A stretch of DNA of 64,000 nt from an uncultured Desulfurococcaceae archaeon (lineage in GTDB: Archaea > Thermoproteota > Thermoprotei_A > Sulfolobales > NBVN01). The position numbers and the translations under genes are program-made. How positions within the stretch are numbered: the stretch's first letter is position 1; every line of letters starts with the position of its first letter. Where the stretch lies: NCBI GenBank assembly GCA_964399035.1, contig CAYNPH010000009.1, positions 73,846 to 137,845 of the forward strand. Reading direction: 5' to 3'. The notes beneath the pieces are model-generated. The model made no database searches. It was not told where the DNA came from and saw only the letters and a program-made list of their open reading frames with translations. Positions 7,396 to 17,206 of the stretch are shown here, one piece after another.

Positions 7396-7815
7396 GTGTC
7401 GATTGTCGTGCGTGAATTTAACAGTATTGGTGAGTTCATAAAGAGTGTAGATGATGAACTCAGCGAAATGCGTAGGAAGCTAGGTGAGCTCTTGAGGAGG
7501 CTTGAGGAATTGCGTGTGAAGGTGGAGCAGGAACGGAAAATTAAGTCCATACTTAGCAAGTTAGGAGCGGCTGCTTCGGCTGGTGCACAATCAAATATTG
7601 TTGAACTTAAAACCATCAAGCTAATAATGAACCCTACAGCGGAACAGGAAGTATCGGCTTTAGAGCAGGTTGTTGAAATGCTTAATAATAAGATTACGCA
7701 ACTGCAGGCGATAAAGAAAGACTTAGACGTTCTAGGAGGAATGGACATTGAAGTAAAGCTTACAGCTATCTATGTCGATGGATTACCTAAAAACATCCTT
7801 ATTAGGATAATGTAA
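7396..7815 (+). CDS. Hypothetical coiled-coil protein at the edge of the pilus island
   Basis: 139 aa with a GTG start. It has heptad-rich stretches (LSEMRRKLGELLRRLEELRVKVEQERKIK; LEQVVEMLNNKITQLQAIKKDL). No family was recognised. Confidence 0.4.
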   Translation: MSIVVREFNSIGEFIKSVDDELSEMRRKLGELLRRLEELRVKVEQERKIKSILSKLGAAASAGAQSNIVELKTIKLIMNPTAEQEVSALEQVVEMLNNKITQLQAIKKDLDVLGGMDIEVKLTAIYVDGLPKNILIRIM

Positions 7816-7887: not shown

Positions 7888-10800
7888 TTAAAATATTTCT
7901 TCACTTGATGCTAACCTTTCTGCTAATATTGCTTTTAGTTTTGCTATGATAATGACAGCAACTCCAGCAATAGCTGCTATGGCTATGATTGGCAAATACC
8001 TAAATACCACAGTAAGTATCTGTGGTTGTAAGGTTATACGGATATTCTTGCTTGAGTCTAAAGTAAATTGCTGTACCGCTTGATAGAAACCCTTAGCATC
8101 AACTATTATCTTGTAATGACCGTAAAATAGGCTTGTGCTAGCCATACCATTTTGATCTGTGTACATCTGTGTAAGTAGTGAACCCATATCAGTGTTAATA
8201 ACCGATATTTTAGCATTTTTTACGGGGTTACCTAAATCATCATATACACTTACACTTAGTGAGTAGTACATCCTTCTCATGTTAAAGCTTACTTTAGTAT
8301 TGTTTTCAACTTTAATTGTCTTAGGTTTAGATTCCATATACATTTTCTCATACTTAGGTAAAGGTTTAAGTTGGAATACATATTTCCCATAAGGTAAAGT
8401 TACATTAGCCTCTGCCCTAATATTAGTGAGTACCTGAGTATTATTAACTATTAACGCAAATTTCCCTTCCAACTTACCTGTTGTTATATCCCTTACACTA
8501 ATATTAACAACATAGGTCTTCCTAGGTATCTGCAGCGTATCTTCGTAATTTCTAGTTAGATCCACACGTAATGAGACATTATTATAAACTTTTTCAAAGC
8601 CTCGCGCAGGCTTAATGCTTATCGTGTAATTAGCAGAACGCAAATACAACGTAAATTCCTCATTACCTGGCTTTAAGATCTGTGTTGTACTTCCATTAAC
8701 ATAAACCATTAATGGCGTTATAGGGGCTGATTCCGTTACGTCATCAAGCAACATTATTTTTACACGATACATAATTCTCGACATTGATATCACCACGCTA
8801 GTCGATCTGTTAACATTGAGAAGTAAGTTACTAGGTCTGTAGATTTTCGCGTATATCCCCTGAGGGACAATGGAAATTGTATGGTTACCGTAAACCAACT
8901 GCATTCTCAGCGATCCGTTGACTACCGGAACTTTCATTTTACCGTCAATTATTGCGGTAAAGTTCCCGTTGGGTATTTTACCCGTGAGAGTGTCCATTAG
9001 TTTCACATTTACTGAAAACTTTCTGTAAGGTATGGGAATAGAAACAATGTACTTACCGAATGTGGGTATCGTCACTAACTTTGTAACGTTCTGCAAGTGT
9101 GGGTTGCTTGACATTATTGATATAGCATAAGTTTCACCAGGTATTACTCGGGGCACTACTACTTCATAATTCTTTGTTTCTGAAAGATTATATACTATTT
9201 TTCCGTTTGGATAACTAAACACTAACCTACCATTGGTAAGTTTCTCCTTATTTGGAGGGATAATCCGAATTGTCAGGGACGGTAATAGATATTTACTTAT
9301 GTCCACAGGAACACGTCCAAAAACCACATTATTTAGTCCCTTTGCCACAACTAATGAAGACCCCCCTCCTACAGCTATCAGCGTTAAGGAAGCCGAGGCA
9401 TCTCCTGACACTACATGCAATGGAGCAAAACTCAATCGAGTATTAATACGCAAGTACGGAAACTGCGAGACACCAATTGAAATGACCTGCAATCCATTGC
9501 TTGTATATACTACATATACATTCTTCCCTGCCATTGGCACAGGTTTCATTGAAACCAATTTAGCTGGAGATACATATTCGTTTACGTACATATAACTAGT
9601 TCCCATCCATTCATACGCCTTAATGGTTCCATCATCCAAACCAACCGCAACATAAGGCGAATTAGGAAACGTAATAACACTAGCTACACTACGTGATCTA
9701 CCAACATAATCCGTTACTGATCCGTTAGTAACGTCAAAGTTATTACTTATTCTAAGTAAGTTAAGATTCCCACTTAGGGGATCTACAAATACTAGCAAAT
9801 ACCATGAACCATACTTATTGCTATGCCTTACAACCCTCATACTGAGAGTACCACGAGGCAATTTATAATCCAGTACCTTGACAAGCTTATAATTAGTTGG
9901 TGCTGTCGAAACATCAAGTACACCAACAATGTACTTAGTAAAGCTAGGCTGACCATATATCTCGGCCATTGGTGTCGTAAGTGGCGGTGCCCGTAAGACT
10001 AATTGCTCATGTATAACACGCACGTAGCTAGGCATCTTACTTAAGTTAAAGGATGCATGATACTTAACCCCATATATATCAAATACGGTTACGTTTACAT
10101 CAAACCCTCTAGGCACAATTATGTCAGCAATTCCACGACTGTCGGCATTTAAACCATAAACATACTTTGTCCCTGTACTTCTATTGAACACAACTACCTC
10201 CACAGCTGCTTTTGATGCAGGGATAGCACTTTTCTCAGAACTCGTTACGTATGTTACATTAAGTAGTAAATGCACAAATTCAGTATAAGGTAACCAAGCT
10301 ACAAATAAATGCGATGCATCATAGTAGTACTTACCCGGCTCAACAACCAAGGGAGCTGCAATTAATTGAGGATATACCTTATGAAATGAAGAAGCTGATG
10401 CGTTACCTACCGTGGCTCCTACTCTGAATACAGACTTTGATAATTCATCGAATACGTATACTTGACAAGTTAAACATACCCCGCTAGGTCTACCACCCTC
10501 ACTAACTAGTGCAGCAACCTTATACGAGTTACCTTTTCCTGTTAAGACAATAATTTTCTTCACGTAGAAGTCAACACCGCCAATATACTGAAGTAATTTA
10601 TATAGCTTACCCCCGTTCACAGCAAATAACAATATTTCTCCTTTATCTGTACCGATAGCTATCCTCTCTACGGGATATCCATTAGTAGCAACAGCTGTAA
10701 CCCTACCCACAATTGGGTAAACCATTACTTGTTTAACACCGGAGATCGGGTCAGATACTTCGTAAACCGCCAGAAGCGACGTTCCCTTAGCACTACCTAT

Positions 10801-11010
10801 TACTGCAATCTCATGATCGTTTATTACTATAACATGTTCTATTGATATATTACCTAGATTTACTGAGTAGGCATAAACTTGTGGTTGCTGAGCATTAACC
10901 ACAAACCCCGTAGCGCTAGGAAATATTACTGTAAACAATACCATTATAAATAATAATATTGTTATAAGGTATATCCCTCTTAATCCCTCTCTACCAGTTA
11001 TGTACATCAT
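7888..11010 (-). CDS. Large membrane-anchored surface (glyco)protein: N-terminal signal/TM, propeller-like region, about 5 tandem Ig-like repeats, C-terminal TM anchor
   Basis: 1040 aa.
- N-terminal hydrophobic segment: IYLITILLFIMVLFTVIFPSATG.
- C-terminal anchor: LPIIAIAAIAGVAVIIIAKL.
- About 20 N-x-S/T sequons by hand count.
- Five modules of about 83-85 aa (aa about 577-996) with a recurring G-x-Y-x-[IV]-x-[IV] motif: PGETYAISIM, YGNHTISIV, SANYTISIK, YGKYVFQLK, YGHYKIIVD. Confidence 0.7.
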   Translation of the reverse strand: MMYITGREGLRGIYLITILLFIMVLFTVIFPSATGFVVNAQQPQVYAYSVNLGNISIEHVIVINDHEIAVIGSAKGTSLLAVYEVSDPISGVKQVMVYPIVGRVTAVATNGYPVERIAIGTDKGEILLFAVNGGKLYKLLQYIGGVDFYVKKIIVLTGKGNSYKVAALVSEGGRPSGVCLTCQVYVFDELSKSVFRVGATVGNASASSFHKVYPQLIAAPLVVEPGKYYYDASHLFVAWLPYTEFVHLLLNVTYVTSSEKSAIPASKAAVEVVVFNRSTGTKYVYGLNADSRGIADIIVPRGFDVNVTVFDIYGVKYHASFNLSKMPSYVRVIHEQLVLRAPPLTTPMAEIYGQPSFTKYIVGVLDVSTAPTNYKLVKVLDYKLPRGTLSMRVVRHSNKYGSWYLLVFVDPLSGNLNLLRISNNFDVTNGSVTDYVGRSRSVASVITFPNSPYVAVGLDDGTIKAYEWMGTSYMYVNEYVSPAKLVSMKPVPMAGKNVYVVYTSNGLQVISIGVSQFPYLRINTRLSFAPLHVVSGDASASLTLIAVGGGSSLVVAKGLNNVVFGRVPVDISKYLLPSLTIRIIPPNKEKLTNGRLVFSYPNGKIVYNLSETKNYEVVVPRVIPGETYAISIMSSNPHLQNVTKLVTIPTFGKYIVSIPIPYRKFSVNVKLMDTLTGKIPNGNFTAIIDGKMKVPVVNGSLRMQLVYGNHTISIVPQGIYAKIYRPSNLLLNVNRSTSVVISMSRIMYRVKIMLLDDVTESAPITPLMVYVNGSTTQILKPGNEEFTLYLRSANYTISIKPARGFEKVYNNVSLRVDLTRNYEDTLQIPRKTYVVNISVRDITTGKLEGKFALIVNNTQVLTNIRAEANVTLPYGKYVFQLKPLPKYEKMYMESKPKTIKVENNTKVSFNMRRMYYSLSVSVYDDLGNPVKNAKISVINTDMGSLLTQMYTDQNGMASTSLFYGHYKIIVDAKGFYQAVQQFTLDSSKNIRITLQPQILTVVFRYLPIIAIAAIAGVAVIIIAKLKAILAERLASSEEIF

Positions 11011-11195
11011 TTCCCCCCACGTTAACCCTATTGTTAACCTAGATTATTCCTCTAACTTTACAGCTAACCCACGATATAAAATCCTTAGCTGTCCCCCTTA
11101 AATTATTACTCCGATCCGTTCTTGTAGTAGAACAAAAATAAAAAAACAGTAAAAGTACGTATTTCTCATGGCAAATCCCAAAGGGTGATGGTGAT

Positions 11196-12800
11196 TTGGT
11201 GGGTCTTTTCAGAGGCTTCCGAATGAAGCTAAAGAGGAAGAAGAAAGAGGAAGAAGAAATACTTGAGAAGGAGGAAGAAGAAATACCTAGGCTAACCCGT
11301 CGGACAAGGACATTCCTTTCGGGTAGAGGACGCCTCTTAGCATCTTACCCACTCTACGAGCCATGGGCTTATGCTTTCATAGTGGAAGATCCGCGTACTG
11401 GAAAAATAATCTATAATGTAGAGGAGGTTAGTATGAATGAAACTGAGAAAAAAACTTACAAGGAGGTCATAGATTACATAACATGGGAATTAGAGCCTCC
11501 CAAAGGATCCGTAGATCCTCGTGAGTACCTTATTCGTTATGCCCGTAAGGCAATCAGGCTCTTCCAAATAAGGTTAGGCCGTACGCCAGGTCTTTCTTGG
11601 GCTAAGATAAGTTACTATGTAGAACGAGATCTTTTAGGTTATGGACCACTAGATCCCCTATTTAGAGATCCAAACATTGAAGATATCTCATGCAACGGTG
11701 TGGGTATACCAGTTTATGTATGGCACAGAAAGTTCGAGTCATTACCTACTAATATTACCTTCGATAATGAGAATGACCTTGACGGATATATTCTAAAGTT
11801 AGCACATATGGCTGGTAAACACATATCTGTAGCCTACCCTATACTTGATGCGATACTACCGGGAGGTCACCGTGTCGCTGCAACCTTCCAGAAGGAAGTA
11901 TCCACTAAGGGTTCAACTTTTACCATACGAAAATTTAGGGCAGATCCCATAACAATCATTGACCTAATAGACTTCGGCACAATTTCTCCTGAAATAGCTG
12001 CATATTTCTGGTTAATAATGGATTACAAGATGACAACCTTAATTCTTGGCGTAACTGGTGCTGGAAAAACCAGCACGCTTAACGCTATGGCCAACCTTTT
12101 GAGACCAACGTATAAGATAGTAACCATAGAGGACACTCCAGAACTAAGGTTGCCGCAGGAAAACTGGGTTCAACTAGTTTCTAGACCCTCATACTTAGCT
12201 GCTGGTGGCATAGGTGAAATAACACTCTTTCACTTAGTTAAGGTCTCACTAAGATACAGACCCGATGTAATAGTTGTTGGTGAGGTTAGAGGTGAAGAGG
12301 CTTACGTACTTTTCCAAGCAATAGCTACAGGTCACTCAGGCATGACAACACTACACGCCGAGTCCATCGATGCAGCAGTAAAAAGGCTTACATCACCACC
12401 AATGAATATACCGCCATCATATATTCCGTTAGTTAACGTTGCAATGGTTATTAAAAGAGTAATAAAAACTGATGAAACAGGTCGACCAAGACCTGTTAGA
12501 CGAATAACAAACGTCTGGGAAATCCAAGACTATGAGAAATATAAAGAAATAGCTAGGTATGATCCTGTGCACGACAAATTTGACCTTAGATTAAATGACA
12601 GCATAGTTTTAAGGAAAATACGCGAACTCACTGGTAAATCTATCGATAATCTAATGGAAGAGGTTGCTCGAAGAAAAGCAATTTTGGAGTGGTTAGCTGC
12701 CAATCGTATAAGATCATATAGGGAAGTAGCGTCATACGTACAAAGATACTATGTTAATCCTAAGTCAGTATTACGTGAAATAGGGGTTGGTGAACTTTGA
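11196..12800 (+). CDS. Type II/IV secretion system ATPase (FlaI/UpsE/AapE-like pilus assembly ATPase)
   Basis: 534 aa with Walker A LGVTGAGKTST, Walker B/Asp-box region RPDVIVVGEVRGEEA and His box ATGHSGMTTLHA, typical of the GspE/VirB11/FlaI superfamily. The N-terminal K/E-rich tail is low complexity. The start is TTG 11196 or ATG 11223. Confidence 0.85.
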   Translation: MVGLFRGFRMKLKRKKKEEEEILEKEEEEIPRLTRRTRTFLSGRGRLLASYPLYEPWAYAFIVEDPRTGKIIYNVEEVSMNETEKKTYKEVIDYITWELEPPKGSVDPREYLIRYARKAIRLFQIRLGRTPGLSWAKISYYVERDLLGYGPLDPLFRDPNIEDISCNGVGIPVYVWHRKFESLPTNITFDNENDLDGYILKLAHMAGKHISVAYPILDAILPGGHRVAATFQKEVSTKGSTFTIRKFRADPITIIDLIDFGTISPEIAAYFWLIMDYKMTTLILGVTGAGKTSTLNAMANLLRPTYKIVTIEDTPELRLPQENWVQLVSRPSYLAAGGIGEITLFHLVKVSLRYRPDVIVVGEVRGEEAYVLFQAIATGHSGMTTLHAESIDAAVKRLTSPPMNIPPSYIPLVNVAMVIKRVIKTDETGRPRPVRRITNVWEIQDYEKYKEIARYDPVHDKFDLRLNDSIVLRKIRELTGKSIDNLMEEVARRKAILEWLAANRIRSYREVASYVQRYYVNPKSVLREIGVGEL

Positions 12801-14605
12801 CTAGCTCTCCACGGATGCCACAAGTACGGCGTCGCAAAAGAGTAACATTAAGTGAAGTATTTAATGCCCTAAGCCTAGCTCTGTTTGAAAAATGGGCCCG
12901 CCATCTAGTTCACTCATTCGAACTAGATACACTACTTCAAAAGGCAGGAATGACATGCCACCCAGTAATTTATGCGTCAAGAGTCCTCTTTGTGACAATG
13001 CTTATTCTCCTGCTCATTACCTCACCTGCAATGTTTGCTATAACCTTAATACCTGTACACTTAGTGATCAAAGTAATCCTACTAGTACTGGCTATAATAG
13101 CACCAACAATAACATTCACTATAGGACTCCTTTACCCTAACATAAAGGCGTCAACTAGGAAAATTATGGTTGACAATGAATTACCTTTCTTTATGGCGTA
13201 CGTCTCAACAATGGTGAGAGGAGGAGTTAGCGTTGACAGAGTAATAGAAAGAGTGGCGCAGTTAAAGATTTTCAAGTATTTAAGGGAGGAAGCACAACGT
13301 ATAGTACTACATATAAGGTTCTTTGGAGAGGATCCTTTAAGCGCGATTGAAAAAGTAGTTAAAAATCATCCTAGCAGTCGTTTTAGGGACCTAATGCTAG
13401 GTTATACAACTACTCTGAGAACTGGCGGTGATGTCCTACATTACCTTGAAATAAGGACACAAGAACTCTTCGCAGCCCGGATGAATGAAATAAAGTCACT
13501 TACTGAAAAGATGGGCTCCTTCCTAGAGATATATATAGTCCTAGGAGTGATAACCTCTATAACTCTGTTTGTATTCTTCGCTGTGAGCGGTGCTTTAGCT
13601 ATGGCTGGATCACAAGCAGGAGGTAGTGCATCAGTACTTAAATTATCTGCATTACGAGGCACACAGAACCTTGTCACGCCAACACTCTACAACTTCCTCG
13701 TGCTCCCCTTACTAGGAATAATGGTACTTGCAATGGCACACTCCGCACAACCGAAATCGTCGATAATTAGATATGAACCTTATTTAACACTATTAGTAGT
13801 CTCTCCTTTCGCACTAGTCACTTTTATAATAGTGCTGAGTGTGACTGGAGGCATTAGGATCTTTTCAGGCGAGTTCGGTATAAAGGAAGTAAAAGCTCTA
13901 ATAATAGCAATATCCGCAGCTCTACTAATGCTCTCTATACCGCCCTGGATTACATATGAACGGCAAGCAAAAGACACCAAAGGAATAATTAAATCAACCG
14001 CTGATTTCCTCAGGGACTTAAGTGAAGTGCGAAAGACTGGATTAAGTCCTGAGAAATGCATAATAACTCTATCTGAGCGAGATTACAGAAATTTAAACAC
14101 AGTAGTTAAACGAGCTGGGGCAGCACTAGCTACAGGTATAGGACTTGAAAGTGCCTTAAGAACTGCTCTAAAAGGGATTAAGGAATGGTTCGTAATAACT
14201 ATATTTAGGTTTTTAACGGATTCCATAACCGTGGGCGGCGGATCCCCAGAAATCATAGATGCGCTCGCTAGGTTCACGCAAAATCTTGCTGAATCTGAAG
14301 AGGAAATGCGAAAAAGATTACGGGCCTACGTCGCACTACCTTACTTTGGTGCAATCATGCTGGCTGCGGCCCCGCTAGTAATACTTTGGCTACTTGTAGC
14401 GTCAGCAAAGAGCCTAGAACCTAATGCCTTAGCGCCACTGATATTTATATTAAGTGGCGGCGCTCTAATTAACAATTATATTATGGGCATAGTAGCTGGT
14501 AAGGTAAGCAGGATGAACGTAGCTGCTGGGTTCAAGCATGCTGTATTCATGACATTAATAACAACGATAACAACAATGTTAACGTTGAAGTTCCTAGGGA
14601 TATAG
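12797..14605 (+). CDS. Polytopic pilus platform protein (FlaJ/TadC/UpsF-like, T2SS-F type)
   Basis: 602 aa with many TM helices separated by two soluble helical regions. It overlaps the ATPase gene by 4 nt (coupled). This is the classical ATPase-platform gene pair of archaeal type IV pilus-like systems. Confidence 0.75.
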   Translation: MTSSPRMPQVRRRKRVTLSEVFNALSLALFEKWARHLVHSFELDTLLQKAGMTCHPVIYASRVLFVTMLILLLITSPAMFAITLIPVHLVIKVILLVLAIIAPTITFTIGLLYPNIKASTRKIMVDNELPFFMAYVSTMVRGGVSVDRVIERVAQLKIFKYLREEAQRIVLHIRFFGEDPLSAIEKVVKNHPSSRFRDLMLGYTTTLRTGGDVLHYLEIRTQELFAARMNEIKSLTEKMGSFLEIYIVLGVITSITLFVFFAVSGALAMAGSQAGGSASVLKLSALRGTQNLVTPTLYNFLVLPLLGIMVLAMAHSAQPKSSIIRYEPYLTLLVVSPFALVTFIIVLSVTGGIRIFSGEFGIKEVKALIIAISAALLMLSIPPWITYERQAKDTKGIIKSTADFLRDLSEVRKTGLSPEKCIITLSERDYRNLNTVVKRAGAALATGIGLESALRTALKGIKEWFVITIFRFLTDSITVGGGSPEIIDALARFTQNLAESEEEMRKRLRAYVALPYFGAIMLAAAPLVILWLLVASAKSLEPNALAPLIFILSGGALINNYIMGIVAGKVSRMNVAAGFKHAVFMTLITTITTMLTLKFLGI

Positions 14606-14737
14606 CTTTCCATTATTAAACTGAACCGCGTTAATGTAAACATATTCCTACAAATAAAACATTAACGAATATCATAGCAATTAATCTAAATATTCAATTA
14701 AAGTATTATTGATTTTCAATAAGGGAAAAGTGGACGT

Positions 14738-14750
14738 AAATTAATTTAAA
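14738..14750 (+). promoter_or_regulatory. TATA-like box upstream of pilin A
   Basis: aaattaatttaaa lies about 35-45 nt upstream of ATG 14783. A G-rich stretch (agggg, 14771-14775) lies 8-12 nt upstream of the ATG. Confidence 0.35.
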
Positions 14751-14782
14751 CCCCTCCTAGCTACTGAAATAGGGGAAAATTC

Positions 14783-15202
14783 ATGGATATGCGCAAGGCT
14801 ATATCCCCAATAATAGCAACGGTAATACTAGTAGCCGTCACGTTAGTAATTGCCGTAGCCATAGTAGGATGGTTAATGGGTCTATGGGGCGGACTAGCTG
14901 GCGGATCACCAGCTATATCAATTACGAACCAGAAGCTCAATACTAATGGCACACTAATAATATATGTGAAGAACTCTGGTGGCGGATCAGATAAGCTACT
15001 TAGTGCAGAACTTCTAAGTGGCGGATCAGTCATTGGTACTAATTCAACTACTATGACGATATCGGCAAATTACGCTGGTTGGATCACAATAAACTTCAAG
15101 CTCAATACTGGCGTAACTATAAATCCTGGAGATACCTTGACTGTTAAACTGTACTTCGAAAACTCAGGCACACAGCAATTCTCTGTGACGGCCGTCGGTT
15201 AG
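14783..15202 (+). CDS. Type IV pilin-like protein with class III signal peptide (pilin A)
   Basis: The N-terminus MDMRKA/ISPIIATVILVAVTLVIAVAIVGWL is a short basic leader, a small residue, then about 22 hydrophobic residues, as in the archaeal flagellin/pilin N-terminal domain. The remainder is beta-rich with the sequons NGT and NST. Confidence 0.75.
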   Translation: MDMRKAISPIIATVILVAVTLVIAVAIVGWLMGLWGGLAGGSPAISITNQKLNTNGTLIIYVKNSGGGSDKLLSAELLSGGSVIGTNSTTMTISANYAGWITINFKLNTGVTINPGDTLTVKLYFENSGTQQFSVTAVG

Positions 15203-15431
15203 CAAACGTTAGCTGCCTTATACAATTTTTAATATCAAGCCTTTGCCGAATATTAATGTTAGCTTAGTTATATTTTTACCCTATACTTACCCTACACTGC
15301 TACTGCCTATACCGCATAAGTTAAGTCCTATTTATTTAGCGCTACACTGCTATAGTGCTAAATTTAATGATGTGAGTAAGGCACAAAGTTTTATAGTAAA
15401 ATACTCCTCCAAAGACAAAGGAGTACTCATC

Positions 15432-16655
15432 ATGAAGTCCTTCCGGCATTACGTGACTAGAAAAACCGCTGGATGCGCTGAAATCCTCTTGCCTATACTT
15501 ATGTTATTATTACTTGCATATATTGCTGGGCTTCGCCTTTCTGAAGTTGTTTTTCCTTATAGCTATAGTGATGAATATTATTACATTACAGCTGGAATTA
15601 ATTATGTAAAATATGGTAATATAGATTTAATTAACTGGGAACATCCTCCTCTAGCTAAGTACTTGATAGGGCTTTCTACAATATATTTAGGTAATCCTCA
15701 TGTGATAGTTTTTTTAGTTGGTTATCTATGTGTTATAATCTTCTTTTTCACAGTACTTACGCTTACACACAATTATTACAGGGCATTATTTAGTTCATTG
15801 CTACTATGTTCTTCTATACCATTTATTAAGACATTTAATTATGCTCTACTAGATTGTTTTGCTTTGTTTTTCTCCTCACTTGCGTTCTATTTAGCAATAC
15901 TCACATTAAATAGAGAACATGCATATACATACAGCTTTGTTGAGGGAATTCTTTGGGGATTAGCTGTAGCAAGTAAGTGGACATCATTATACTTGTTTTT
16001 AGGAAGGATAATATGCTCCCTCTTCCGGCCTACGATTAAGATCTCCTACAAAAAATATTTTATAATTTTATTTGTAATGTCCTCTATAACGTATATGTTA
16101 GCCTTCATTAGTGATTTAAATAAATCTTTCAGTGTTTTCCTCCAGCATAACATCAGGATGATATTATTTATGTTATCCCACCATTCTATAACGTTACATA
16201 CGCTCACCAAAGGACTTACACTACTTTTTTTGAAAACTACTTTCTGGCATAGACTCCCAAATGTTTTTATTACGCTGACAGTAGTTAACTCTACAGTAAT
16301 TAATCAGAGTATTACAATTACACCTGCACCATATACTCTCGAAATAGATATTTTACCAACCTTCGGTGCTTTCTTACTTCCTCTTGTACCGTTTGCGTTA
16401 GTTTATGGGATACTTCAATTTAAGAAACTAAGTACCCCACATAAATATGCCTTCATATTGGCAGTATCATCAATATTTCCGGTGCTACATGGTTCAATAC
16501 CGTGGTACTATATTTACGCTACATACTTTTGGTGCGCTTTTTTCGCAACAATGTTTCGATCTAAGTACTTAATTATTCTACTTATCATGAATATTCTGTA
16601 CTACGCTTTATTAACAAGCCTAAATTTAAATAGGTTAGTGATTTTCGGTGTGTAA
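15432..16655 (+). CDS. GT-C fold membrane glycosyltransferase (PMT/ArnT-like, GT39/GT83-type)
   Basis: Polytopic membrane protein. The first loop after TM1 carries a DE motif (YSYSDEYYY). It is followed by NWEHPPLAKYLIG, which is characteristic of PMT_2/ArnT-type enzymes. I start at ATG 15432 (MKSFRHY); the ORF-track extension from 15243 is probably non-coding because a TATA-like ttttatagtaaaat lies at about 15389-15402. Confidence 0.65.
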   Translation: MKSFRHYVTRKTAGCAEILLPILMLLLLAYIAGLRLSEVVFPYSYSDEYYYITAGINYVKYGNIDLINWEHPPLAKYLIGLSTIYLGNPHVIVFLVGYLCVIIFFFTVLTLTHNYYRALFSSLLLCSSIPFIKTFNYALLDCFALFFSSLAFYLAILTLNREHAYTYSFVEGILWGLAVASKWTSLYLFLGRIICSLFRPTIKISYKKYFIILFVMSSITYMLAFISDLNKSFSVFLQHNIRMILFMLSHHSITLHTLTKGLTLLFLKTTFWHRLPNVFITLTVVNSTVINQSITITPAPYTLEIDILPTFGAFLLPLVPFALVYGILQFKKLSTPHKYAFILAVSSIFPVLHGSIPWYYIYATYFWCAFFATMFRSKYLIILLIMNILYYALLTSLNLNRLVIFGV

Positions 16656-16753
16656 TCACCTAACTATATCGTTTTAGAGATGTTACACAATATTCAACTG
16701 AATAATAAAATATATCTTACTCGCGTAGTAATTAGCTATACGGAGGTATCCAC

Positions 16754-17206
16754 GTGAGCAGGTGTAATATTAAATTATGCAGGGGAATATCCGCGATGAT
16801 AATTGAGGTGTTAATAATAGCGCTAACTCTAATAATGGTTTCATTGGCAGTATCATGGATCATGGGATTATGGCACACTACAGAGGAAACATTTATGATT
16901 AGACCTATGATTCAAATAAGTTATGGCTCACTATCATCAAAGCCCGTGCTAAAGCTTTATATTACAAATAAGGGACAACGTGGTGACGAAATACTAAGAG
17001 TGGAGATAAAGGCTGGCTCTGGCTATTATGTTAACACAACAACATTTAATATACCTGCAGGGTTTTCAGGTCCCATACTTATCGATAAATGGAGTATTGC
17101 TGGTTCCCCTAAGTCGTTAGAACCGGGGGATAGATGCCGAATCTACATATATACTAAGGAACATGGTATGTTATTTTATGATATCGTGGTTACATCACAA
17201 GGATAG
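16754..17206 (+). CDS. Type IV pilin-like protein with class III signal peptide (pilin B)
   Basis: The N-terminus is MSRCNIKLCRG/ISAMIIEVLIIALTLIMVSLAVSWIMGLW, with a GGAGGT Shine-Dalgarno-like motif about 10 nt upstream of GTG 16754. It shares the W[LI]MGLW motif with pilin A. Confidence 0.7.
   Translation: MSRCNIKLCRGISAMIIEVLIIALTLIMVSLAVSWIMGLWHTTEETFMIRPMIQISYGSLSSKPVLKLYITNKGQRGDEILRVEIKAGSGYYVNTTTFNIPAGFSGPILIDKWSIAGSPKSLEPGDRCRIYIYTKEHGMLFYDIVVTSQG

What the first reader, a model, noticed from the sequence alone, without database searches (positions are those of the whole stretch)
7888..11010. 1040-aa sequon-rich surface protein with about 5 tandem Ig-like repeats, divergent from the pilus operon
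Read directly from the translation:
- an N-terminal hydrophobic signal/anchor;
- a region with recurring ...G.D.G.I..[FY].. strands (IAIGTDKGEILLFAV, VAVGLDDGTIKAYEW) suggesting a beta-propeller;
- five consecutive modules of about 83-85 aa (aa about 577-996, nt about 8023-9282), each with a G-x-Y-x-[IV]-x-[IV] strand motif, as in carboxypeptidase-regulatory-like/PEGA folds;
- a C-terminal TM anchor with a short charged tail.

I count about 20 N-x-S/T sequons by hand, concentrated in the repeats. The architecture fits a stalk-displayed glycoprotein. Sharing a divergent promoter region with the pilus ATPase suggests a co-regulated partner, such as an adhesin, pilus receptor or S-layer-associated anchor. 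In Sulfolobales, Ups pili recognise surface glycans, so a co-encoded heavily glycosylated surface protein is a plausible self-recognition determinant.
Basis: partly seen in the sequence, partly recalled or inferred. Interest (0 to 1): 0.55.

Follow-up and report, generated by a model that had tools for sequence, protein, structure and literature searches.

The report
Pilus-linked propeller-on-stalk surface glycoprotein
This gene encodes a membrane-anchored, probably heavily glycosylated archaeal surface protein (a beta-propeller head on a stalk of five Ig-like domains) that consistently travels with a type IV pilus gene cluster in hot-spring archaea, so it is most likely an uncharacterised accessory part of that pilus system and an example of an already recognised theme.

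Summary
ORF 7888-11010(-) encodes 1040 aa: a cleavable Sec-type signal peptide, a WD40-like beta-propeller head (aa ~43-576) with a beta-sandwich insert (aa 244-342), five tandem ~84-aa CarboxypepD_reg/transthyretin-like domains (four clear by sequence, the first mainly by structure), a C-terminal TM helix and a conserved acidic tail. It has 20 N-x-S/T sequons against 8.4±2.6 expected. The link to the pilus is real. Homologues, down to about 22% identity, sit next to T2SSE/T2SSF pilus-machinery genes in five different genomic contexts. In this genome the protein shares an anomalously low-GC3 block with the pilus genes. The family is small, confined to uncultured Desulfurococcaceae-like lineages and Zestosphaera, and unnamed. 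It is not UpsX-like, not a recognisable S-layer protein and not PilY1. The stalk, anchor and tail form a generic display module shared by about 100 other large surface proteins; the specific part is the head, whose blades 2-3 are the most conserved region. Best reading: a dedicated cell-surface accessory of a Ups/Bas-like type IV pilus, holding a conserved binding head at roughly S-layer height. Large Ig-rich accessory proteins in archaeal pilus loci are already described in general, so this is a new member of a known kind, of moderate interest.

The parts
10891..11010 (-). Signal peptide (aa 1-40): n-region, hydrophobic core at aa ~12-35, c-region ending VNA|QQ
   Evidence: Hydropathy. AF2 gives helix 10-28 followed by a disordered stretch up to aa 42. 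Homologues have classical Sec signals with A-x-A-type ends and no class III pilin motif.
10282..10884 (-). Beta-propeller, N-terminal half (blades 1-4, aa 43-243). Blades 2-3 (aa 88-190) are the most conserved region. The only two Cys form CxxC at aa 179-182.
   Evidence: AF2 head model pLDDT 86.4 with four-strand groups. Foldseek matches WD40 propellers. Conservation by domain. Invariant residues.
9985..10281 (-). Seven-strand beta-sandwich (CarboxypepD_reg-like) inserted between blades 4 and 5 (aa 244-342)
   Evidence: AF2 strands. hhalign against repeat R5: E = 1.5e-6, probability 90%. Pfam bMG3 hit at the equivalent position in paralogue P0049.
9283..9984 (-). Beta-propeller, C-terminal half (blades 5-8/closure, aa 343-576)
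   Evidence: AF2. Family profile hits RACK1 WD40 over profile positions 403-540, E = 3e-5.
9028..9282 (-). Stalk domain R1 (aa 577-661), a divergent beta-sandwich
   Evidence: AF2 strands 579-659. Weak profile similarity to R5 (E = 4e-5) and R4 (E = 2e-4).
8776..9027 (-). Stalk repeat R2 (aa 662-745)
   Evidence: hhalign R2-R3 E = 7e-25, R2-R4 E = 1e-20.
8521..8775 (-). Stalk repeat R3 (aa 746-830)
   Evidence: hhalign.
8272..8520 (-). Stalk repeat R4 (aa 831-913)
   Evidence: hhalign.
8023..8271 (-). Stalk repeat R5 (aa 914-996), the only one that passes Pfam's CarboxypepD_reg threshold
   Evidence: Pfam PF13620: 40.8 bits against a cutoff of 32.3. PDB sequence hit to B. anthracis TIE/collagen adhesin 6fwv, E = 3e-9.
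7888..8022 (-). Anchor module (aa 997-1040 plus the stop codon): TxxxRYxP motif, TM helix, basic stretch, acidic tail ending EEIF-COOH
   Evidence: Hydropathy. AF2 helix 1006-1032. The same signature occurs in about 100 other large proteins. No curated sorting-signal model matches it.
11011..11195 (.). AT-rich divergent intergenic region shared with the pilus ATPase gene (extends to 11222 if the ATPase starts at the ATG used by gene callers)
   Evidence: Sequence. GC 0.37. 525-aa ATPase call on the public contig.
11196..12800 (+). Type IV pilus assembly ATPase (T2SSE; FlaI/BasE-like)
   Evidence: Pfam T2SSE E = 3e-34 and PilB3_C. NCBIfam FlaI 374 bits and BasE 270 bits, both below their cutoffs.
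12797..14605 (+). Platform membrane protein (T2SSF/TadC; UpsF/BasF-like)
   Evidence: Pfam T2SSF E = 3e-22. NCBIfam UpsF 118 bits and BasF 99 bits, below their cutoffs.
14783..15202 (+). Pilin 1 with a class III signal peptide (MRKA|ISPII...)
   Evidence: Pfam Pilin_N and TIGR02537; weak UpsA similarity.
15243..16655 (+). GT-C/PMT-like polytopic membrane glycosyltransferase candidate. The true start is probably downstream, since homologues are 364-393 aa.
   Evidence: Pfam PMT 24.2 bits (cutoff 22.7) and PMT_2 25.1 bits (cutoff 26.1). Conserved in L001, L004, L005, L010.
16754..17206 (+). Pilin 2 with a class III-type N-terminus (CRG|ISAMII...)
   Evidence: Pfam Pilin_N (weak) and weak NCBIfam UpsA similarity.
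7396..7815 (+). 139-aa coiled-coil protein convergent with the target; possibly associated, in two of the five contexts
   Evidence: 61-74% identical in syntenic relatives. A homologue is also convergent with the target homologue in L027, which has a different downstream context (E = 5e-17). No family assignment.

Best explanation
The gene encodes a dedicated cell-surface accessory protein of a Ups/Bas-like (clade 4) archaeal type IV pilus.

Shown or strongly predicted:
- It is exported through Sec.
- Its signal peptide is removed.
- It stays anchored by one C-terminal TM helix with a short conserved cytoplasmic tail (a type I membrane protein).
- Five beta-sandwich domains in tandem form a stalk, with a WD40-like beta-propeller at the distal end.
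- It is inherited together with the pilus ATPase, platform and pilin genes.

Inferred:
- It is N-glycosylated at many of its 20 sequons, as extracellular crenarchaeal proteins generally are.
- The stalk is roughly 20 nm long (5 domains of about 4 nm each, an estimate from my own knowledge). This would place the propeller at about the height of the S-layer canopy.
- The conserved face of the propeller (blades 2-3) would bind a conserved endogenous partner, most probably the pilus filament or the envelope around its exit site.
- It would therefore act as a pilus-associated envelope adaptor or adhesin-like holder, not as a variable recognition tag.
For: Architecture.

Sec-type signals across the family.

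Linkage across five genomic contexts:
- Divergently adjacent to T2SSE-T2SSF-pilin in 16 of 17 informative loci.
- Includes relatives at 28-29% identity where both flanks differ: RFC/Cdc6 on one side, FBPase/TIM/A-ATPase on the other.
- A third context, with PhoU/PHO4 downstream.
- The 1120-aa subfamily, homologous over the full length (hhalign E = 4e-51), keeps the divergent T2SSE pairing even though the module is inverted relative to SHMT.
- Paralogue P0043 lies directly upstream of a T2SSF gene.

Shared history: in this genome the target and all five pilus-cluster genes have GC3 0.30-0.39, against 0.43-0.59 in the flanks. The relatives do not show this. This indicates en-bloc replacement of the unit.

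Conserved partner:
- Blades 2-3 and the tail are the most conserved parts.
- Protein length is tightly fixed within each subfamily: 1029-1073, 1121-1139 and 1186-1235 aa. This is as expected for a spacer matched to the envelope and not for a strain-variable adhesin.

Precedent: large Ig-fold-rich adhesin-like or S-layer-like proteins are a recognised accessory class in archaeal TFF loci, proposed to mediate adhesion or to prime the S-layer for filament passage (10.64898/2026.04.22.720090; PMC4858521).
Against: - There is no experimental or expression data, and co-regulation from the divergent promoter region is untested.
- One relative (Zestosphaera tikiterensis NZ3, L012) has the gene without an adjacent pilus ATPase.
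- The stalk, anchor and tail are generic, so any contact between the tail and the pilus machinery is not specific.
- The propeller has no match to a functionally defined family; it resembles generic WD40 only.
- The binding partner is pure inference.
- Overall sequence divergence is as fast as for the pilins (33% identity where the ATPase is 68%), which also fits an externally exposed adhesin.
Confidence: 0.6

Rival explanations
1. One reading: the protein is a glycan-bearing self-recognition determinant or pilus receptor. Its N-glycans on the stalk repeats would be what the co-encoded pili of neighbouring cells bind, by analogy with Ups pili recognising S-layer glycans in Sulfolobales.
For: - Sequon enrichment is real and family-wide, at 1.05-2.6 per 100 aa.
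- A GT-C/PMT-like glycosyltransferase candidate sits in the same cluster.
- The pilins resemble UpsA weakly.
- The protein is co-inherited with the pilins.
Against: - Sequon richness is typical of exported crenarchaeal proteins and lies on a stalk module shared by about 100 unrelated-head proteins, so it is not specific to this protein.
- The cluster fails every Ups equivalog cutoff.
- The most conserved part is the propeller, not a variable region.
- A receptor needs no genetic linkage to the machinery. In Sulfolobus the recognised glycans are on the general S-layer (PMC3892339).
Confidence: 0.15
2. It is a free-standing adhesin for external surfaces or other cells (for example a symbiont or prey), co-regulated with the pilus but acting independently of the filament.
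For: - Best structural and sequence matches of the stalk are to Gram-positive adhesin and pilus proteins (TIE 6fwv, PitA 7vcn).
- The sequence evolves fast.
- The literature labels comparable proteins 'adhesin-like'.
Against: - Repeat number is fixed within each subfamily.
- The distal head contains the most conserved segment, the opposite of what is usual for host- or substrate-facing adhesins.
- The tight divergent pairing with the ATPase survives inversions and relocations.
Confidence: 0.15
3. It is a general envelope component, such as an S-layer stalk protein analogous to SlaB, whose position next to the pilus genes is historical and not functional.
For: - The overall plan (Sec signal, beta-sandwich domains, C-terminal TM) resembles SlaB.
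- Distant relatives' repeats weakly hit the NCBIfam SlaB model (20-54 bits against a cutoff of 700).
- In context A the housekeeping flanks are syntenic too.
- L012 lacks the adjacent pilus genes.
Against: - The target itself gives no SlaB or S-layer model hit, and no S-layer structure is hit by the family profile.
- Linkage to T2SSE/T2SSF persists where all other synteny is lost.
- It shares the low-GC3 block with the pilus genes only.
- The family is narrow in taxonomic range.
Confidence: 0.08

Closest known systems
Large Ig-fold-rich 'adhesin-like / S-layer-like' accessory proteins of archaeal type IV filament loci (e.g. arCOG05616 in subsystem 4G, arCOG07037 in 4B, arCOG05057 in archaellum loci; Makarova et al. 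2016, PMC4858521; Sivabalasarma and Albers 2026, 10.64898/2026.04.22.720090)
   Same: A large secreted multi-Ig-domain protein, encoded next to the ATPase and platform genes of an archaeal T4P-type machine. Function unknown; proposed roles are adhesion, recognition or S-layer priming.
   Different: This family has a WD40-like propeller head with an inserted sandwich domain, a type I C-terminal TM anchor with an EE-x-F tail, and a divergent orientation to the ATPase. It is confined to Desulfurococcaceae-like lineages. Neither paper's text, as far as I read it, describes it. I could not check the arCOG assignment.
UpsX (arCOG05986) of the Sulfolobales ups operon
   Same: An accessory gene immediately upstream of the pilus ATPase in a cluster with the same content (X, E, F, A, B). 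UpsX is described as consisting of several Ig folds.
   Different: UpsX is a 79-kDa protein predicted to be cytoplasmic, only partly membrane-associated after UV, and co-directional and co-transcribed with upsE (PMC3892339). The target is Sec-exported, TM-anchored, 1040 aa, carries a propeller and is divergently transcribed. Sequence homology could not be tested because no UpsX sequence was obtainable.
PilY1 / archaeal PilY-like adhesins (bacterial T4P; archaeal subsystems 2 and 4A/B)
   Same: A beta-propeller-containing accessory protein genetically tied to a type IV pilus.
   Different: No Pfam or NCBIfam PilY1/PilC hit. PilY1 is not TM-anchored and associates with the pilus tip through minor pilins. 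The propeller here is N-terminal and distal on a membrane-anchored stalk.
SlaB, the stalk protein of the Sulfolobales S-layer
   Same: Sec signal, CarboxypepD_reg-like beta-sandwich domains and a C-terminal TM anchor spanning the pseudo-periplasm.
   Different: No coiled-coil stalk. The target gives no SlaB model hit. It has a propeller head and is linked to pilus genes, not to an slaA partner.
Gram-positive tandem Ig-like stalk proteins (B. anthracis TIE 6fwv; S. oralis PitA 7vcn)
   Same: Tandem transthyretin/CnaB-type beta-sandwich domains. These are the best fold and sequence matches for the stalk.
   Different: Similarity is at the domain level only, in a different domain of life. There is no sortase/LPXTG signal, and isopeptide-bond signatures were not tested.

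Membership tests
CarboxypepD_reg (PF13620) domain-containing proteins | A match to the Pfam model above its gathering score | tested here: met
   aa 918-994: 40.8 bits against 32.3. R2-R4 are related to this domain by profile comparison but do not themselves pass Pfam.
WD40-like beta-propeller fold | A closed toroid of 4-stranded blades, with structural similarity to solved propellers | tested here: met
   AF2 pLDDT 86.4 and pTM 0.86, with eight 4-strand groups. Foldseek probability 1.0 to many WD40 propellers, RACK1 TMt 0.51-0.56. Profile against PDB sequences: RACK1 E = 3e-5.
WD40 repeat family (sequence family) | Pfam WD40 repeat matches | tested here: not met
   No WD40 Pfam hit at E <= 0.1. 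The similarity is at fold and remote-profile level only.
Archaeal type IV pilus (TFF) locus | Adjacent genes for a T2SSE ATPase, a T2SSF/TadC platform and pilins with class III signals | tested here: met
   A prepilin peptidase was not looked for in the window.
Accessory component of that TFF locus | Gene neighbourhood conserved across lineages independently of general synteny | tested here: met
   Five distinct contexts keep the pairing. There is one exception, L012.
Accessory component of that TFF locus | Co-expression or physical interaction with pilus components | not testable with these tools
Ups pilus system (Sulfolobales) | UpsF and UpsA equivalog models above their cutoffs | tested here: not met
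   UpsF 118 bits against 400; UpsA 30.8 and 33.3 bits against 130.
Ups pilus system (Sulfolobales) | An UpsX homologue upstream of the ATPase | tested here: inconclusive
   Position and 'several Ig folds' are similar, but localisation, size and orientation differ. No UpsX sequence could be fetched for a homology test.
Ups pilus system (Sulfolobales) | UV/DNA-damage induction and a role in aggregation and DNA exchange | not testable with these tools
   An experimental property.
S-layer proteins (SlaB-type) | A match to S-layer protein models or structures | tested here: not met
   No NCBIfam SlaB hit for the target. No S-layer chain among the PDB sequence hits. Only distant paralogues hit SlaB, at 20-54 bits against 700.
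PilY1-type pilus adhesins | PilY1/PilC propeller domain model; vWA domain | tested here: not met
   No such Pfam or NCBIfam hit at E <= 0.1.
Archaeosortase substrates (PGF-CTERM and related) | A match to a curated C-terminal sorting-domain model | tested here: not met
   The C-terminal 55-62 aa of four family members were scanned at E <= 10, and no sorting-signal model matched.
N-glycoprotein | Occupied N-x-S/T sequons | not testable with these tools
   Sequon enrichment is shown. Occupancy needs glycoproteomics.

The most novel reading that the evidence does not exclude
The protein is a trans-envelope coupling element of a crenarchaeal type IV pilus machine. Its conserved cytoplasmic EE-x-F tail would contact the ATPase/platform complex (or the small coiled-coil protein encoded convergently), while the propeller docks on the filament or S-layer at a fixed height. 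This would give archaeal pili a functional counterpart of the bacterial PilMNOP alignment complex or the archaellar FlaF/FlaG stator. As a corollary, the PxxxTxxxR[YF]xP-TM-EE-x-F module shared by about 100 large proteins would be an undescribed crenarchaeal surface-protein anchoring or sorting signal.
Probability: 0.15. Interest if true: 0.7.

Novelty: new member of a known kind. Interest (0 to 1): 0.38.

Why it matters
Type IV pili of Crenarchaeota are usually modelled with only three parts: ATPase, platform and pilins. How the filament passes through and is held in the S-layer-bounded envelope is an open question.

This family gives a concrete candidate. It is a conserved, pilus-linked, membrane-anchored protein whose head would sit at about S-layer height. 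It is found in a lineage that includes Zestosphaera, the cultured host of a nanoarchaeote.

The finding also separates a generic display module (stalk, TM and acidic tail), used by many large surface proteins, from a pilus-specific head. That is useful for annotating archaeal surface proteomes.

It does not change the general picture, which already includes large Ig-rich accessory proteins in archaeal pilus loci.

Tried and rejected
- Self-BLASTP for repeats found nothing. The repeats are visible only with profiles.
- The search for related loci with the broad alignment A2 failed for lack of a conserved stretch. The narrower A1 worked.
- UpsX homology test: the Fig. S1 alignment in the supplement is only an image. 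A metagenome scan with the S. acidocaldarius upsX qPCR primer found nothing. Homology is therefore untested.
- Hits of 600-720 aa were scanned as possible UpsX-like proteins. They gave only generic CarboxypepD_reg-type matches and weak SlaB hits.
- The last homology search, with the broadened profile A4, returned only already-known members because of the word-index limit, and gave no named or cultured relatives beyond Zestosphaera.
- L012 upstream region: checked for rRNA or CRISPR as a cause of the apparent absence of ORFs. The cause was an Lhr helicase ORF running off the contig end.
- Class III (pilin-type) signal on the target: considered because of 'LRG|IYL', and rejected because the motif is not conserved and homologues have ordinary Sec signals.
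- Full-length Foldseek gave low TM-scores because of the multidomain geometry. It was repeated on the head alone.
- Archaeal promoter elements in the intergenic region were inspected by eye only. The sigma-70 scanner is not appropriate for archaea, so it was not used.
- The Ups UV-responsive hexamer was considered and not pursued, because a 6-mer is not informative in 185 bp.

Full report

Yes. The minus-strand ORF 7888-11010 encodes 1040 aa. Gene callers on the identical public contig start at the second Met, giving 1039 aa.

Hydropathy shows only two strongly hydrophobic segments, at aa ~12-35 and aa ~1005-1027. The second is followed by a 13-aa charged tail.

Shuffled sequences give 8.4 ± 2.6, and none of 2000 shuffles reached 20. 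Thirteen sequons lie in aa 577-996.

Pfam recognises only one domain above threshold: CarboxypepD_reg at aa 918-994.

**2. Architecture**

*Models.* An AlphaFold2 model built on 15 family members has mean pLDDT 79.8 and is all-beta between a terminal helix at each end. A separate model of aa 43-575 has pLDDT 86.4 and pTM 0.86.

*Head.* Foldseek places the head among WD40-type propellers; against 7-bladed RACK1/Asc1 the target-normalised TM-score is 0.51-0.56. The family profile also hits RACK1 by sequence (E = 3e-5). By strand count there are eight four-strand groups. A seven-strand sandwich (aa 244-342) is inserted between groups 4 and 5.

*Stalk.* Profile self-comparison gives an ~83-aa periodicity, with E = 6e-31, 2e-17 and 4e-5 for shifts of one, two and three units. 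The domain-by-domain comparison gives:

| Comparison | E-value |
|---|---|
| R2-R4 with each other | 1e-19 to 7e-25 |
| R5 with R2-R4 | 7e-8 to 6e-12 |
| R1 with R5 | 4e-5 |
| Propeller insert with R5 | 1.5e-6 |

So "about five tandem Ig-like repeats" is right: four are firm by sequence and the first rests mainly on structure.

The closest solved relatives of the stalk are tandem-Ig adhesin or pilus proteins: B. anthracis TIE 6fwv and S. oralis PitA 7vcn.

*Signal peptide.* N-termini across the family are ordinary Sec signal peptides with A-x-A-like ends, not class III pilin signals. The mature protein is therefore a type I membrane protein.

**3. The family**

Word-based and exhaustive searches find a small family of full-length homologues. 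All are unnamed or labelled "hypothetical". They come from Zestosphaera and from uncultured Desulfurococcaceae/"Sulfolobales" MAGs.

There are three length classes, each with tightly conserved length: 1029-1073, 1121-1139 and 1186-1235 aa. The 1120-aa class is homologous over the whole length, head included (hhalign E = 4e-51, 931 aligned columns).

Sequon richness is family-wide, at 1.05-2.6 per 100 aa. Four of the query's sequon positions are kept in at least 17 of 20 members.

Conservation is highest in propeller blades 2-3 (aa 88-190, including a nearly invariant CxxC formed by the only two cysteines) and in the cytoplasmic tail. It is lowest in blades 5-8 and in stalk domains R1-R3.

**4. 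The stalk, anchor and tail are generic**

About a hundred other large proteins (up to 2610 aa), with different N-terminal parts, share the last repeats together with a characteristic C-terminus: P-x-x-x-T-x-x-x-R-[YF]-x-P, a TM helix, a basic stretch, and EE-x-F as the very last residues. Of the 163 hits, 106 have a TM helix plus an EE tail, and 95 end in Phe.

No curated sorting-signal model matches this C-terminus. No other ORF in the 64-kb window carries it.

The pilus-specific part of the target is therefore its head.

**5. Is the link to the pilus genes real?**

The neighbours are:
- a FlaI/BasE-like T2SSE ATPase;
- a UpsF/BasF-like T2SSF platform;
- two pilins with class III signals;
- a GT-C/PMT-like membrane protein between the pilins.

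In close relatives the whole region, including CDC48, TatD and SHMT, is syntenic. Adjacency there proves little.

The decisive observations are the distant ones:

| Context | Loci | Arrangement |
|---|---|---|
| A | the window and close relatives | CDC48, TatD, 139-aa gene, target, then divergently T2SSE, T2SSF, pilins, ending near SHMT |
| B | L016, L018, L019 (28-29% identity) | target still divergent from T2SSE-T2SSF-pilin, between RFC/Cdc6 and FBPase/TIM/A-ATPase genes |
| C | L027 | same pairing, with PhoU/PHO4 downstream |
| D | L025, L028 (1120-aa subfamily) | pairing kept although the module is inverted relative to SHMT |
| E | L026 (a more distant paralogue) | directly upstream of a T2SSF gene |

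Of the 17 loci with enough upstream sequence, 16 have the ATPase adjacent. The exception is Zestosphaera tikiterensis NZ3, where an Lhr helicase gene lies upstream.

There is independent compositional evidence. In this window the target and the five pilus-cluster genes (7888-17206) form a block with GC3 0.30-0.39, against 0.43-0.59 for the flanking genes. In relatives the target, ATPase and platform match their flanks. In this lineage the unit, target included, looks as if it was replaced en bloc.

**6. What it most likely does**

*Shown or strongly predicted:* an exported, membrane-anchored, stalk-displayed propeller protein, co-inherited with a clade-4 type IV pilus machine.

*Inferred:* heavy N-glycosylation, and a stalk of roughly 20 nm that puts the head near S-layer height. 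The length is an estimate from typical domain dimensions and was not measured.

The conserved head, the fixed stalk length per subfamily and the tight pairing with the ATPase all argue for a conserved endogenous partner. The pilus filament, or the envelope at its exit site, is the most probable. This fits the role proposed in the literature for Ig-rich accessory proteins of archaeal TFF loci, namely adhesion or priming the S-layer for filament passage (10.64898/2026.04.22.720090; PMC4858521).

The rivals are not excluded, and each is judged less likely:
- a glycan-bearing recognition determinant;
- an independent adhesin;
- a general S-layer component.

**7. Comparison with known systems**

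- *Ups.* The cluster is Ups/Bas-like but misses all Ups equivalog cut-offs.
- *UpsX.* UpsX occupies the equivalent position and is now described as made of several Ig folds. It is a 79-kDa protein predicted to be cytoplasmic and co-transcribed with upsE. Homology could not be tested because no UpsX sequence was obtainable.
- *Others.* There is no PilY1, SlaB or archaeosortase-signal match.

**8. Verdict**

It is an uncharacterised family within an already recognised class, so a new member of a known kind and of moderate interest.

The most novel reading still open is a trans-envelope coupling role, together with a new crenarchaeal C-terminal anchoring signal.

Noticed in passing
L005 3813-7838(-); L010, L017, L021; L028 64-4539(-); compare window 11196-12800: The pilus ATPase carries inteins in several relatives. 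L005, L010 and L021 each have two insertions, one at the Walker A motif and one before the conserved TGHSG motif. L017 has one. The L028 copy is 1491 aa with Pfam Intein_splicing and LAGLIDADG hits. The window's copy is intein-free.
   Followed up: partly
window 7888-17206: The target plus the five pilus-cluster genes form a low-GC3 block (0.30-0.39) between housekeeping genes at 0.43-0.59. In related genomes the target, ATPase and platform match their flanks. This suggests en-bloc replacement of the module in this lineage.
   Followed up: yes
window 7888-8022 (aa 997-1040); proteins P0039-P0163: A C-terminal signature (PxxxTxxxR[YF]xP, TM helix, basic stretch, EE-x-F as the last residues) is shared by about 100 large secreted proteins (79-2610 aa) with different N-terminal parts. 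No Pfam or NCBIfam sorting-signal model matches it. It may be an undescribed crenarchaeal anchoring or sorting module.
   Followed up: partly
window 15243-16655 (+): A GT-C/PMT-like polytopic membrane protein lies between the two pilin genes (Pfam PMT 24.2 bits, just above its cutoff). It is conserved in L001, L004, L005 and L010 but absent from the minimal module in L016, L018 and L019. It is a candidate pilin or surface-protein glycosyltransferase. The listed ORF probably starts too far upstream.
   Followed up: partly
window 7396-7815 (+); L027 6051-6497 (-): A 139-aa coiled-coil protein lies convergent with the target and is far better conserved than it (61-74% identity). A homologue (29% identity, E = 5e-17) keeps the same convergent position in L027, where the further downstream genes differ. 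It may belong to the module. No family assignment.
   Followed up: partly
L012 1-2845 (Zestosphaera tikiterensis NZ3 contig start): In this genome the target homologue is preceded by an Lhr-type DEAD-box helicase gene instead of the pilus ATPase. This is the only exception to the linkage. It could be a rearrangement or a scaffolding artefact.
   Followed up: partly
L019 14861-16108 (+): A TnpB/Cas12f-like gene (Pfam Cas12f1-like_TNB) is inserted directly downstream of the target homologue, between it and the FBPase gene that is adjacent in L016.
   Followed up: no
window 10465-10476 (aa 179-182): CxxC formed by the only two cysteines of the protein, at least 90% conserved across the family. 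It lies in a lower-confidence loop of propeller blade 3. Possibly a disulfide or a metal site on an extracellular hyperthermophile protein.
   Followed up: no
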